Positions 14,353 to 15,396 of a stretch of 15,907 bases of DNA are shown here, piece after piece (positions within the stretch are counted from its first letter, which is position 1; every line of letters begins with the position of its first letter). The notes beneath the pieces were generated by a model that saw only the letters and a list, made by a program, of their open reading frames with translations, was not told the origin of the DNA and searched no databases. The DNA is from Escherichia coli. Lineage in GTDB: Bacteria; Pseudomonadota; Gammaproteobacteria; Enterobacterales; Enterobacteriaceae. The DNA lies in assembly GCF_003334335.1 (NCBI RefSeq), contig NZ_QOWQ01000058.1; one strand, given 5' to 3'. The position numbers and the translations under genes were made by a program.

Positions 14353-14393
14353 GTAAAATCCCCGTCATATGGCAATCAGTAAAGGAAATAAAT

Positions 14394-14594
14394 ATGTCAT
14401 CGAAAAACCGGACCCGCAGAACCACAACCCGCAATATCCGTTTCCCCAATCACATAATTGAACAGATCAACATCGCCCTTGAGCATAAAGGGTCCGGTAA
14501 CTTTTCAGCGTGGGTTATTGAAGCCTGCAGGAGAAGGCTGGCAACAGATGCAACGCATCTGCGCCCGGCCAGCATGAAAAATAACGAGAAATGA
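14394..14594 (+). CDS. Small YlcI/YnfO-like (DUF3950-type) protein with an Arc/MetJ-like ribbon-helix-helix pattern, 66 aa
   Basis: AAAGGA SD then ATG at 14394 (the six-frame ORF from 14334 is an unlikely extension overlapping the HNH start). MSSKNRTRRTTTRNIRFPNHIIEQINIALEHKGSGNFSAWVIEACRRRL resembles the small prophage proteins next to terminase genes in E. coli cryptic prophages and has the beta-strand/two-helix pattern of Arc-like repressors. Only plus-strand gene here. Confidence 0.7.
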   Translation: MSSKNRTRRTTTRNIRFPNHIIEQINIALEHKGSGNFSAWVIEACRRRLATDATHLRPASMKNNEK

Positions 14595-14725
14595 ACGTTC
14601 GGTTACAGGAGCAGGTACCCACTGTCCTCCAACAATATTTCATCTTCATATCCGACGGAACAAGACTTACCCTGCCGGGATGTACAGAATAACAACAGAG
14701 TGATAATTAATTTCTGATGAAATAA

Positions 14726-15058
14726 TCAGGGTGCAGAAGGACTAAAGATAAACGTTTTCTTCACGCCTTTACACGGCCTGTCCTTCTCAAATCGCCATTT
14801 TGCCATCGCCTTTACAACCTGCTCATCAAACAAATGGTGCGGCTCTGAACGGATAAACTCAATTCGGGTGACAGTACCATCAGCACCAATATCAAACTTC
14901 ACATCAACCCGTCCCTTTATATAATTTGCCGCTGCATAGGCCGGATATTGTGGTAATGCCTTAACCAACTGTCGGGGCATATCTGTTTTATGTTGCGTAC
15001 AGCCCATAACCAGAGAAGACAACAAAATAATTAACGGAAGATTTCTTTTCATTTTCAT
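14726..15058 (-). CDS. Lipoprotein carrying a TonB C-terminal domain (signal peptide and lipobox followed by a TonB_C-like domain); about 110 aa
   Basis: Likely ATG at 15058 or 15052 (the ORF-track GTG at 15067 is less likely). MKMKRNLPLIILLSSLVMGC-TQ is a lipoprotein signal with lipobox VMGC and Thr at +2. Residues about 30 to 105 (PRQLVKALPQYPAYAAANYIKGRVDVKFDIGADGTVTRIEFIRSEPHHLFDEQVVKAMAKWRFE) align position by position with the E. coli TonB C-terminal domain as recalled. Region is AT-rich relative to flanking genes. Confidence 0.8.
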   Translation of the reverse strand: MKMKRNLPLIILLSSLVMGCTQHKTDMPRQLVKALPQYPAYAAANYIKGRVDVKFDIGADGTVTRIEFIRSEPHHLFDEQVVKAMAKWRFEKDRPCKGVKKTFIFSPSAP

Positions 15059-15072
15059 TCCCGGCACAGATA

Positions 15073-15089
15073 AGAATAAGTCTTATTCT
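15073..15089. promoter_or_regulatory. Perfect 8-1-8 inverted repeat AGAATAAG-T-CTTATTCT just upstream of the TonB-domain lipoprotein gene; candidate operator overlapping a -10-like TAGAAT
   Basis: Palindrome read directly. On the minus strand the sequence is TTAGAATAAGACTTATTCTTATC, AT-rich and loosely Fur-box-like, 15 to 30 nt upstream of the start codon. Confidence 0.35.
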
Positions 15090-15396
15090 AACAATGCCAC
15101 CCTGTCGGTCATCAATCCTCTGCTTAATGGCAACGACAATTATCCGACTTAAATCACAAATCAGACACATGACATAACAGAGCTTGCGAGGTAACACATC
15201 GTCCGGTTTCTTCCACCATCGCACCGGACCAGCGACCATGAGGGGACAACGCCGCGCTCCGTTAACGCGGTAAACCCCGGTGTGTATCGTTTTTGATTAT
15301 CCCCGCACACTCTCGCAGAGGAGTCTCCCTGTCGGGCTGCGGTCTCTGTTAATGCAGGAATACGGCGACAATACCGCGCATGGATAATAAGGTCGC

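What the first reader, a model, noticed from the sequence alone, without database searches (positions are those of the whole stretch)
14353..15396. AT-rich accessory (moron) island between the lysis cassette and the HNH/cos/terminase block
Flanking structural genes are GC-rich with tightly coupled 4-nt overlaps, whereas this roughly 1-kb stretch is visibly AT-richer, has long non-coding gaps, genes on both strands and its own candidate promoter/operator. That is the compositional and organisational signature of horizontally acquired lysogenic-conversion cargo, at the position where lambda carries bor.
Basis: seen in the sequence. Interest (0 to 1): 0.5.

Follow-up and report, generated by a model that had tools for sequence, protein, structure and literature searches.

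The report
Prophage cargo slot carrying TonB-like lipoprotein
This AT-rich kilobase of an E. coli lambda-like prophage is an ordinary variable cargo ('moron') slot. Its optional 595-bp cassette encodes an uncharacterised lipoprotein made of the TonB C-terminal domain, which may block TonB-dependent phages and colicins, and it sits beside an unannotated conserved RNA-like element.

Summary
Window 14353-15396 is 46.3% GC against 56.9% elsewhere (z about -6), has genes on both strands and three non-coding gaps.

The window is an E. coli lambdoid prophage with its late genes on the minus strand. The interval has three parts:
- A 184-nt GC-rich, non-coding conserved element (EL, 15383-15200). It is present in lambda itself, and its covariation points to a structured RNA. 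It is not cargo.
- A discrete 595-bp cassette (15199-14605, 42% GC) flanked by a 9-bp direct repeat. It is precisely absent from sister phages and present in 417 of 5,426 complete E. coli genomes. It encodes a 108-aa lipoprotein that is only the TonB C-terminal domain.
- An antisense ylcI/ynfO (DUF3950) gene that travels with the packaging module.

Across 134 related loci the Rz-to-terminase slot is a combinatorial mosaic (bor, Rha, KilA-N, hyp74, TonB lipoprotein, lambda p78, ylcI).

So the 'moron island' reading holds for the cassette. Lysogenic conversion is untested, and the cassette sits next to bor's slot, not in it.

Proposed mechanism, inferred only: an outer-membrane-tethered TonB-box decoy. 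This is an ordinary kind of feature with uncharacterised cargo.

The parts
15618..15907 (-). 3' part of Rz (i-spanin). It runs off the window end. Rz1 (o-spanin) is embedded at 15892-15707. This is the end of the lysis cassette.
   Evidence: ORFs. The Rz1 ORF matches phrog_3198 at E 1.3e-30. RefSeq annotates the same stretch as 'lysis protein'.
15397..15621 (-). hyp74: a 74-aa ORF of unknown function, coupled to Rz by an ATGA overlap. AT-rich (46%). It is an optional occupant of the sub-slot upstream of the conserved element.
   Evidence: ORF. It matches phrog_2571 positions 100-172 of 291. No Pfam, NCBIfam or PADLOC hit. It is present in some related loci and absent from others.
15200..15383 (-). 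EL: a conserved, GC-rich (59%), non-coding element with sharp boundaries. It is probably a structured RNA within the late transcript. It is not cargo; it is the landmark that separates two cargo sub-slots.
   Evidence: Found in 398 phage records at 77-98% identity and in 1,911 of 5,426 E. coli genomes, where it is unannotated. Lambda carries it at about 46865-47034. Its ORFs are broken by stops and 1-nt indels. RNAalifold gives -29.6 kcal/mol on the sense strand against -13.0 on the antisense. Of the structure cells, 98.2% are paired and 8 pairs show double changes. No Rfam hit.
15200..15208 (-). Upstream copy of the 9-bp direct repeat AACCGGACG, at the 3' edge of EL. It bounds the cassette.
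   Evidence: 3 matches in the window against 0.24 expected. Phage 569R3 keeps a single copy at the empty site.
14605..15199 (-). TonB-lipoprotein moron cassette: 595 bp, 42.2% GC.
   Evidence: Precisely absent from vB_EcoS-569R3 and replaced by other DNA in Stx2_EH1846 and PPyecE. Present in 417 of 5,426 genomes, in 414 of them at 80% coverage or more, at 95-100% identity. GC z = -7.5.
15085..15112 (-). Sigma-70 promoter-like site with an extended -10 (ATGACC-16-TAGAAT, preceded by TG). An overlapping palindrome AGAATAAG-A-CTTATTCT lies at 15073-15089.
   Evidence: The TG-n-[T/C]AGAAT motif is conserved in the phage-21 allele, but the right arm of the palindrome is not. Best match to the Fur consensus is 13 of 19, and 3.9% of shuffles do as well.
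14726..15052 (-). TonB-CTD lipoprotein gene (108 aa). It has a signal peptide with lipobox LVMG|C, Thr at +2, a 7-residue linker, and then a complete TonB C-terminal domain.
   Evidence: Pfam TonB_C at 1.8e-14. TIGR01352 scores 54.4 bits against a cutoff of 27.1. A gapless 79-aa alignment to E. coli TonB 153-231 (PDB 1u07, 2gsk, 2grx), E about 6e-16 for the E. coli chains and 39% identity. dN/dS is 0.12 against the phage-21 allele. The lipobox and short linker are conserved in three alleles.
14596..14604 (-). Downstream copy of the 9-bp direct repeat (AACCGAACG).
14394..14594 (+). ylcI/ynfO-family gene (DUF3950, 66 aa). It is antisense to the late operon and divergent from HNH. Probably a small ribbon-helix-helix DNA-binding protein.
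   Evidence: NCBIfam NF041551 scores 35.2 against a cutoff of 30. phrog_949 at 8.8e-33. PF13132 is recorded for the identical cluster. AF2 predicts an extended N-terminal segment followed by two helices. hhalign aligns NIRFP with NLRWP of Arc at E 0.018. It co-occurs with the HNH/TerS or Nu1 modules.
13987..14352 (-). HNH endonuclease gene, the first gene of the HK97-type packaging block. It forms the right-hand boundary of the island.
   Evidence: phrog_589 at 1.8e-44. RefSeq annotation.

Best explanation
What it is (shown). The interval lies between the lysis and packaging modules of an E. coli lambdoid prophage. Its late operon is on the minus strand, and its head and packaging genes are of the HK97 type.

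This inter-module slot is a recombinational mosaic organised around a conserved 184-nt element (EL). Optional genes sit upstream of EL: none, hyp74, bor, Rha or KilA-N. Others sit downstream of it: none, the TonB lipoprotein, lambda p78, a phage-21 ORF or ylcI.

In this window the only true moron inside the stated coordinates is a 595-bp, 42%-GC cassette bounded by a 9-bp direct repeat.

How it is probably expressed (inferred). The cassette lies in the same orientation as the late genes. It has an extended -10 promoter-like site of its own. It could therefore be expressed both in the lysogen and during late transcription.

What the protein is (shown). The product is a lipoprotein consisting only of the TonB C-terminal domain. 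It has no TonB membrane anchor and no proline-rich spacer.

How it probably works (inferred).
- With Thr at +2 it should be sorted by Lol to the inner leaflet of the outer membrane.
- It would be tethered there by about 7 residues, right where the TonB boxes of TonB-dependent transporters emerge.
- It would bind those TonB boxes by beta-strand pairing but could not transduce energy.
- It would therefore act as a dominant-negative decoy.
- This would lower TonB-dependent uptake of phages (T1/phi80 type), group B colicins and microcins, either protecting the lysogen or protecting progeny phage from debris.

The neighbouring antisense ylcI gene most likely encodes a small Arc-like DNA-binding protein. 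It belongs with the packaging module rather than with the cargo.
For: Identity of the locus and the mosaic.
- The 2-kb stretch is 99% identical to many E. coli chromosomes, where it is annotated lysis protein / hypothetical / TonB family protein / YlcI-YnfO / HNH / TerS / TerL.
- Sister phages differ exactly in this slot.
- 134 oriented loci show combinatorial contents on both sides of EL and four different packaging modules.

The cassette is discrete.
- Breakpoints fall at 15199/15200 and 14604/14605, with the repeat AACCGRACG at both ends.
- It occurs in 417 of 5,426 genomes, as a whole unit.
- Its GC is 42.2%, z = -7.5.

The protein is functional.
- dN/dS is 0.12 against the 72%-identical phage-21 allele.
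- The lipobox Cys and the short linker are conserved in the two E. coli alleles and in a Klebsiella phage homologue. All three lie downstream of the lysis genes; in the two E. coli backbones that is just before the packaging genes.

The domain is a complete TonB CTD.
- It aligns without gaps to TonB 153-231 of solved structures, including TonB-BtuB and TonB-FhuA complexes.
- Y163, P164, F180, F202, W213 and F230 are identical and Y215 is replaced by F. This is my reading of the alignment; the residue numbering is from memory.

Precedent for inhibition. PMC9841981 states that overexpressing the periplasmic domain of TonB inhibited TonB-dependent iron import in E. coli, citing Howard et al. 2001. 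It also states that a TonB-box pentapeptide reduced colicin killing and phi80 infection, citing Tuckman & Osburne 1992.
Against: - There is no experimental or expression evidence. I found no paper on this protein.
- The promoter is only a consensus match, and the -35 is not conserved between alleles.
- No intrinsic terminator follows the gene, so the classic promoter-gene-terminator anatomy of a moron is incomplete.
- A constitutive pan-TonB decoy would starve the host of iron and vitamin B12, so it would have to be weak or regulated. The candidate Fur-like match is marginal (13 of 19, p about 0.04).
- Q160 of TonB is Leu here, and the effect of that change on binding is unknown.
- The single-sequence AlphaFold model was poor (pLDDT 54), so the fold rests on sequence homology alone.
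- PADLOC has no match.
Confidence: 0.75

Rival explanations
1. The TonB-like lipoprotein is a lysis accessory or spanin-type protein. On this view it belongs to the lysis cassette and acts at the outer membrane during lysis, and is not conversion cargo.
For: PHROGs places it full-length in phrog_1267, labelled 'Rz-like spanin' (E 6e-43). It lies downstream of Rz/Rz1 in the late-transcript orientation, and no terminator separates it from them.
Against: - The phage already has a complete Rz/Rz1 pair.
- The protein is a globular TonB_C domain. It has no C-terminal transmembrane segment, which a unimolecular spanin needs, and is not the short proline-rich type of an o-spanin.
- Sister phages with the same lysis genes lack it.
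- Its composition differs sharply from that of Rz.
- The PHROG label is probably propagated from synteny. The neighbouring phrog_6954, also labelled 'Rz-like spanin', is an ORF call over a non-coding element.
Confidence: 0.07
2. The lipoprotein is a host-benefit or virulence factor unrelated to TonB-box competition. It might stabilise the envelope, bind peptidoglycan or host molecules, or act in a serum-resistance or adhesion role like Bor and Lom.
For: The same slot carries bor in relatives. The cassette is frequent in EHEC and EPEC lineages: O157:H7 EDL933, O26, O111, O103, O145 and E2348/69. Reports that the TonB CTD associates with peptidoglycan are from my own knowledge and were not checked here.
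Against: Conservation covers the whole TonB-box-binding domain, including the C-terminal beta strand. The very short tether places the domain at the inner face of the outer membrane, not at the cell surface. There is no homology to Bor.
Confidence: 0.15
3. The AT-rich stretch is mostly decaying or neutral junk at a recombination junction, with no selected function for its genes.
For: The slot is a recombination hot zone with many alternative contents. Frameshifted ORF fragments lie over 15161-15436. No terminator was found and the promoter is weak.
Against: - dN/dS is 0.12 for the TonB-like gene.
- The gene is annotated as an intact CDS in the listed genome copies.
- ylcI has 660 protein clusters with an invariant N-terminal half.
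- The 'frameshifted ORF' region is a conserved element with covariation, not decay.
Confidence: 0.03

Closest known systems
Lambda bor (and lom): the classic lambdoid morons
   Same: Small lipoprotein gene of atypical composition. It is optional among relatives and sits between Rz and the packaging genes.
   Different: No sequence homology. bor is on the opposite strand and upstream of EL, whereas the TonB cassette is co-oriented with the late genes and downstream of EL. Phage 21 carries both. bor's expression in the lysogen and its serum-resistance role have been demonstrated (my own knowledge); nothing has been tested for this gene.
Phage 21 gp73 'TonB C-terminal domain protein' (OL657228) and the gene annotated 'partial tonB-like membrane protein encoded within prophage CP-933N'
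   Same: A homologous allele: 72% amino-acid identity, the same 108-aa length, the same lipobox and the same position directly after EL.
   Different: It sits in a different backbone (lambda-type Nu1/A terminase, with bor next door). The palindrome at the promoter is absent, and its 3' flank differs and includes a terminator-like hairpin. It is equally uncharacterised.
E. coli TonB (energy transducer), C-terminal domain, PDB 1u07 / 2gsk / 2grx
   Same: The whole CTD aligns without gaps at 39% identity, and the aromatic core and the YP motif are kept.
   Different: It lacks the N-terminal transmembrane anchor and the Pro-rich spacer, and is lipid-anchored instead. It therefore cannot couple to ExbB/ExbD.
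Engineered periplasmic TonB fragments (Howard et al. 2001, as cited in PMC9841981)
   Same: A TonB periplasmic domain uncoupled from the inner-membrane motor; reported to inhibit TonB-dependent transport.
   Different: Those fragments were soluble and overexpressed. This protein is natural, shorter and lipid-tethered. The inhibition is inferred by analogy only.
Cor (phi80, N15) and Llp (T5) superinfection-exclusion lipoproteins
   Same: Phage-encoded outer-membrane lipoproteins that disable a TonB-dependent receptor (FhuA). PMC11436027 covers Cor; Llp is from my own knowledge.
   Different: They have no TonB_C domain and target one receptor. A TonB-box decoy would act on the shared coupling step of all TonB-dependent transporters. 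This is a 'works like' comparison, not a claim of membership.
ylcI (DLP12) and ynfO (Qin) of E. coli K-12, DUF3950
   Same: The window's plus-strand gene is a member of this family and has the same placement, antisense and just upstream of the first packaging gene.
   Different: Here it sits next to an HNH/TerS module rather than a Nu1 (nohD/nohA) module. The function of the family is unknown.

Membership tests
Moron (extra gene unit in a phage genome, in the sense of Hendrix and Juhala) | Present in some phages and absent, at a precise junction, from otherwise closely related ones | tested here: met
   The 595-bp unit is exactly missing from 569R3 and replaced by other DNA in EH1846 and PPyecE. 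It is in 417 of 5,426 genomes, while some part of the flanking 2 kb matches in 4,541.
Moron (extra gene unit in a phage genome, in the sense of Hendrix and Juhala) | Nucleotide composition different from the surrounding phage genes | tested here: met
   42.2% GC against 57.4 +/- 2.0% (z = -7.5). GC3 is 0.41 against 0.55-0.66.
Moron (extra gene unit in a phage genome, in the sense of Hendrix and Juhala) | Own promoter upstream and own terminator downstream | tested here: inconclusive
   The extended -10 promoter-like site at 15112-15085 is partly conserved in the phage-21 allele. No terminator-like site follows the gene.
Moron (extra gene unit in a phage genome, in the sense of Hendrix and Juhala) | Expressed from the repressed prophage (lysogenic conversion) | not testable with these tools
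   No expression data were available, and no paper on the gene was found.
TonB energy-transducer proteins | C-terminal TonB_C domain | tested here: met
   PF03544 at 1.8e-14. TIGR01352 scores 54.4 against a cutoff of 27.1. PDB TonB chains at E about 6e-16 for the E. coli chains.
TonB energy-transducer proteins | N-terminal transmembrane anchor that couples to ExbB/ExbD, plus a Pro-rich periplasm-spanning spacer | tested here: not met
   The protein is 108 aa. Residues 1-18 are a lipoprotein signal peptide, and only 7 residues precede the CTD. Full-length TonB equivalog models score 50-74 bits against cutoffs of 265-448.
Bacterial lipoproteins sorted to the outer membrane | Lipobox ending in Cys after a basic and then hydrophobic signal peptide; the +2 residue is not Asp | tested here: met
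   The sequence reads MKRNLPLIILLSSLVMG|C-T-Q. The G-C is conserved in three alleles. Lipid modification and sorting are inferred from the sequence rule, not shown.
Spanins (label of PHROG 1267) | An o-spanin is a short Pro-rich lipoprotein paired with an i-spanin. A u-spanin has a lipobox plus a C-terminal transmembrane segment. | tested here: not met
   The mature part is a globular TonB_C domain and the C-terminus ...TFIFSPSAP is not a transmembrane segment. A separate Rz/Rz1 pair is present.
Bor/Iss lipoproteins | Sequence homology to lambda Bor | tested here: not met
   A tblastn of lambda Bor finds it in other loci but not in the window.
YlcI/YnfO (DUF3950, PF13132) | Match to the family model above its curated cutoff | tested here: met
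   NF041551 scores 35.2 bits against a cutoff of 30. PF13132 is precomputed for the 100%-identical cluster.
Ribbon-helix-helix (Arc/MetJ) DNA-binding proteins (for YlcI) | An N-terminal beta strand followed by two helices, with detectable similarity to known RHH proteins | tested here: inconclusive
   The AF2 model has an extended N-terminal segment followed by helices 19-32 and 34-55, at pLDDT 68. The top Foldseek hit is the RHH antitoxin ParD2, but at E 5.5. hhalign against Arc is in register at E 0.018 with probability 2.6%. A profile search against PDB sequences found nothing.
Known RNA families (for the conserved element EL) | Match to an Rfam covariance model | tested here: not met
   No Rfam 15 match at E up to 1 over 13600-15907.

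The most novel reading that the evidence does not exclude
The cassette encodes a natural pan-TonB-box decoy. This would be an outer-membrane-tethered TonB C-terminal domain that blocks the energy-coupling step shared by all TonB-dependent transporters. It would be a mode of prophage-encoded exclusion of phages, colicins and microcins distinct from receptor-specific blockers such as Cor and Llp.

The cassette is also inserted directly after a previously uncatalogued, possibly pseudoknotted RNA element. That element is conserved in the late operon of lambdoid phages, including lambda itself.
Probability: 0.3. Interest if true: 0.65.

Novelty: new member of a known kind. Interest (0 to 1): 0.35.

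Why it matters
As a moron slot, this is textbook lambdoid mosaicism, and the genes already carry generic RefSeq names. What would matter is the cargo. About 8% of complete E. coli genomes, including the major EHEC and EPEC lineages, carry a purifying-selected lipoprotein that is nothing but the TonB-box-binding domain.

If it is a decoy, it would link prophage carriage to resistance against TonB-dependent phages, colicins, microcins and siderophore-antibiotic conjugates, and to iron uptake. That is relevant to phage therapy and to 'Trojan horse' antibiotics.

Separately, the conserved element next to it is present in lambda and in 1,911 of 5,426 genomes. It is unannotated and shows covariation, which makes it a cheap and directly testable candidate for a new late-operon RNA.

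Tried and rejected
- Rfam scan of 13600-15907 at E up to 1: no hit. The conserved element is therefore not AgvB, AsxR, Esr41, STnc100 or any other listed family.
- Hfq-CRAC 'EcOnc' sRNAs of Tree et al. 2014. The five candidates I fetched (EcOnc04, 05, 08, 13, 32) map between Q and the holin, not to EL. No listed peak lies at the Sp3 copy of EL, whose core is at 903370-903404.
- Pas sRNAs (Zhu et al. 2026 preprint). Their conserved neighbours (Q, lpxR, RusA, TerB, sialic acid esterase, holin/lysozyme operon) place them elsewhere in the prophage.
- Protein-coding reading of 15161-15436 and 14988-15239 (hits to phrog_6954). Rejected because stops and 1-nt indels break the ORF in most relatives.
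- Fur box at the cassette promoter: only 13 of 19 matches, p about 0.04. Left as inconclusive.
- The palindrome as a conserved operator. Rejected because its right arm is missing from the phage-21 allele.
- Intrinsic terminators after the TonB-like gene or ylcI: none found, and the folds are not better than shuffles.
- Single-sequence AlphaFold model of the lipoprotein: too poor to use.
- Fold and profile searches for YlcI: not significant.
- PADLOC: no defence-system match.
- Four literature searches for a phage TonB-like lipoprotein found nothing relevant.
- Howard et al. 2001 could not be opened, so it is cited only through PMC9841981.
- A ylcI/ynfO literature search failed for lack of capacity and was not repeated.
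Full report
**Context**

All real genes of the window lie on the minus strand except one. Read along the minus strand, the end of the window runs as follows:
- Rz/Rz1 spanins (15907-15618; Rz1 at 15892-15707).
- A 74-aa ORF (15621-15397), coupled to Rz by a 4-nt overlap.
- A 329-bp stretch with no annotated gene.
- A 108-aa 'TonB family' ORF (15052-14726).
- A 131-bp gap.
- A plus-strand 66-aa YlcI/YnfO gene (14394-14594).
- A 41-bp gap.
- HNH endonuclease (14352-13987).
- A 290-bp gap.
- TerS (13696-13133) and TerL (13136-11475).

The 2-kb stretch is 99% identical to many E. coli chromosomes, where RefSeq annotates the same genes. It is also close to Stx-converting and other lambdoid phages. 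So this is an E. coli lambdoid prophage with HK97-type packaging genes.

The stated interval is 46.3% GC against 56.9% for the rest of the window, z = -6.4 against equal-sized windows. The dip is heterogeneous:

| Segment | Coordinates | GC |
|---|---|---|
| hyp74 (outside the stated interval) | 15397-15621 | 46% |
| Conserved element EL | 15200-15383 | 59% |
| TonB cassette | 14605-15199 | 42% |
| ylcI segment | 14353-14604 | 47% |

A promoter-like site with an extended -10 and an overlapping 8-1-8 palindrome lies upstream of the TonB-like gene. The promoter count in the region is not above chance (4 found against 2.5 +/- 1.2 expected).

**The slot holds variable cargo**

Six annotated relatives differ exactly here:
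- One E. coli chromosome has the same arrangement as the window.
- JLK-2012 has KilA-N in place of hyp74.
- Lys8385Vzw has a Rha-family gene there.
- 569R3, Stx2_EH1846 and PPyecE lack the TonB-like gene.

Pairwise BLAST and a multiple alignment place the breakpoints at 15199/15200 and 14604/14605. In 569R3 the two sides are joined directly. The 595-bp unit is bounded by a 9-bp direct repeat AACCGRACG (15208-15200 and 14604-14596), and 569R3 keeps one copy. This fits either insertion or deletion by microhomology.

The cassette occurs in 417 of 5,426 complete E. coli genomes, nearly always whole, at 95-100% identity and only on chromosomes. These include O157:H7 EDL933, O26, O111, O103, O145 and E2348/69. 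By contrast, some part of the surrounding 2 kb matches in 4,541 genomes.

I then oriented 134 loci on a conserved core sequence: my earlier fetches plus 120 viral contigs. Scanning them with a panel of proteins showed a combinatorial mosaic:
- Upstream of the conserved element: nothing, hyp74, bor (opposite strand), Rha or KilA-N.
- Downstream of it: nothing, the TonB lipoprotein, lambda p78, a phage-21 ORF and/or ylcI.
- Then one of four packaging modules: HNH+TerS, lambda Nu1, 933W-type TerS or a Fels-1-type TerS.

It also corrects the position. In lambda, bor sits upstream of the conserved element, while the TonB cassette sits downstream of it. Phage 21 has both.

**The cargo protein**

- The ORF starts most plausibly at ATG 15052, with GGGA six nucleotides upstream. 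RefSeq makes the same call.
- The sequence reads MKRNLPLIILLSSLVMG|CTQHKTDM-PRQL..., that is, a lipoprotein signal peptide, Thr at +2 and a 7-residue linker.
- It then aligns without gaps to E. coli TonB residues 153-231 at 39% identity. The PDB hits include TonB in complex with BtuB and FhuA, at E about 6e-16 for the E. coli chains.
- The YP motif and the aromatic core are kept, and Q160 is Leu. The numbering is from memory.
- It lacks the TonB membrane anchor and the proline-rich spacer, so it cannot be an energy transducer. Full-length TonB models score far below their cutoffs.
- A second allele (72% identity) sits in phage 21 and its relatives, directly after the same conserved element. 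A 40%-identical homologue sits after the lysis genes of a Klebsiella phage.
- All three keep the lipobox and the short tether.
- dN/dS between the two E. coli alleles is 0.12, so the protein is under purifying selection.
- The PHROG label 'Rz-like spanin' does not fit the domain content. A complete Rz/Rz1 pair is already present.

**Mechanism (inferred, not shown)**

A TonB C-terminal domain held at the inner face of the outer membrane would meet the TonB boxes of TonB-dependent transporters. It could not energise them, so it would compete with TonB. There is precedent: overexpressed periplasmic TonB domain inhibits TonB-dependent iron import, and a TonB-box peptide reduces colicin killing and phi80 infection (PMC9841981, citing Howard 2001 and Tuckman & Osburne 1992).

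The closest functional analogues are Cor and Llp, phage lipoproteins that block FhuA (for Cor). This protein would act on the shared coupling step instead.

The weak points are these:
- There are no expression data.
- The -35 is not conserved and there is no terminator.
- The Fur-like match is only marginal.
- Impairing iron uptake has an obvious cost.

I put the decoy mechanism at roughly 0.3-0.35, while the 'discrete moron cassette' statement is near-certain.

**ylcI**

The plus-strand gene is a member of the YlcI/YnfO family (DUF3950), as found in the K-12 prophages DLP12 and Qin. Across loci it always lies antisense, just upstream of an HNH/TerS or Nu1 module. It therefore belongs with the packaging end of the slot rather than with the cassette. 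It is found in 1,464 of 5,426 genomes.

Its invariant half (TTTRNIRFPN..IEQINIAL..KGSGNFSAWVIEACRR) looks like an Arc-type ribbon-helix-helix. The AF2 model shows an extended N-terminal segment followed by two helices, and hhalign puts NIRFP on Arc's NLRWP. No search reached significance.

**The 'non-coding gap' is a conserved element**

Window 15383-15200 (minus strand, so the same sense as the late transcript) is nearly invariant among phages whose flanks on both sides are unrelated.

Distribution:
- 398 phage records at 77-98% identity, including VT2-Sakai/933W-type phages, mEp460 and phage-21-type phages.
- Lambda itself, at about 46865-47034, between bor and p78.
- 1,911 of 5,426 E. coli genomes, up to 9 copies each, with no annotation under it.
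- An exact-core scan of one genome per species found it essentially only in Escherichia.

It is not protein-coding. The ORFs that PHROG 6954 is built on are broken by stop codons and 1-nt indels in most variants.

Evidence for RNA structure:
- On 61 distinct sequences, RNAalifold gives -29.6 kcal/mol on the sense strand against -13.0 on the antisense.
- One-sided changes are almost all G-U-compatible on the sense strand only: 99.1% of cells pair on the sense strand against 88.2% on the antisense.
- A hand-built 45-pair structure includes two crossing helices at the 3' end. In it 98.2% of cells pair and 8 pairs show changes on both sides. Only 3 of 500 shuffles reach that count, and 0 of 500 reach the covariation score.
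- Helix 7 alone shows GU/CG, UA/UG/CG and CG/AU alternations.

Caveats: the sequences are related, the alignment is MAFFT-based, and I chose part of the structure after looking at the sequences.

There is no Rfam match, and it is not among the prophage sRNAs I could check. Its function is unknown. A processing or stability element between the lysis and morphogenesis parts of the late mRNA is a guess.

**Verdict**

The finding is a correct call of an ordinary feature, a moron slot at the lysis/packaging junction of a lambdoid prophage, and the genes are already named generically in RefSeq. The refinements are these:
- A discrete 595-bp cassette with an uncharacterised TonB-CTD lipoprotein.
- A neighbouring conserved RNA-like element that explains the 'gap'.
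- A ylcI gene that is linked to the packaging module rather than being cargo.

Noticed in passing
window 15200-15383 (minus strand); lambda NC_001416 about 46865-47034; L010:2502-2684; L139 core at Sakai 903370-903404: A conserved 184-nt non-coding element with sharp boundaries lies between the lysis and packaging modules of about 400 lambdoid phage records, lambda included. It is in 1,911 of 5,426 E. coli genomes and is unannotated. Covariation and a strong sense-versus-antisense asymmetry suggest a structured RNA, possibly pseudoknotted, within the late transcript. No Rfam family matches it.
   Followed up: partly
window 15161-15436 and 14988-15239 (minus strand); L010:2479-2739 (VT2-Sakai orf48): PHROG 6954 ('Rz-like spanin', 81 aa) appears to be built from spurious ORF calls over the conserved non-coding element. 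The frame is broken by stops or 1-nt indels in most variants. PHROG 1267, also labelled 'Rz-like spanin', is really the TonB_C lipoprotein. Both labels look like propagated mis-annotation.
   Followed up: yes
window 15397-15621 (minus strand): A 74-aa ORF is translationally coupled to Rz by an ATGA overlap. It is AT-rich (46% GC) and is optional among related loci. It matches only the middle of a 291-position PHROG (2571) of unknown function. It lies just outside the finding's coordinates but belongs to the same accessory zone.
   Followed up: partly
window 14898-14925 (plus strand): A near-consensus sigma-70 promoter-like site (TTCACA-16-TATAAT, 11 of 12) lies antisense inside the TonB-like gene, pointing towards its 5' end. 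The -10 is kept in the phage-21 allele but is constrained by the Asn-Tyr-Ile codons. It could be an antisense or spurious intragenic promoter, as is typical of AT-rich acquired DNA.
   Followed up: no
window 15200-15208 and 14596-14604 (minus strand): The 9-bp direct repeat AACCGGACG / AACCGAACG bounds the 595-bp cassette exactly. The empty site in phage 569R3 keeps one copy. This suggests microhomology-mediated gain or loss.
   Followed up: yes
window 15073-15089: A perfect 8-1-8 palindrome AGAATAAG-A-CTTATTCT overlaps the -10 and start region of the cassette promoter. It matches the Fur-box consensus at 13 of 19 positions, and 3.9% of shuffles do as well. Its right arm is deleted in the phage-21 allele.
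   Followed up: partly
window 14353-14393: A 41-bp, 34%-GC spacer separates the divergent start codons of ylcI (plus strand) and HNH (minus strand). Late transcription must read through ylcI antisense to reach HNH and the terminase genes. YlcI might therefore act on this spacer, but this was not tested.
   Followed up: no
L141-L144, L146 (genome-contig hits): Exact copies of the E. coli phage element turn up on short contigs of MAGs labelled Collinsella, Nanosynbacter, Thiomicrorhabdus and 'Proteobacteria'. These are most likely binning or contamination artefacts rather than true hosts.
   Followed up: no
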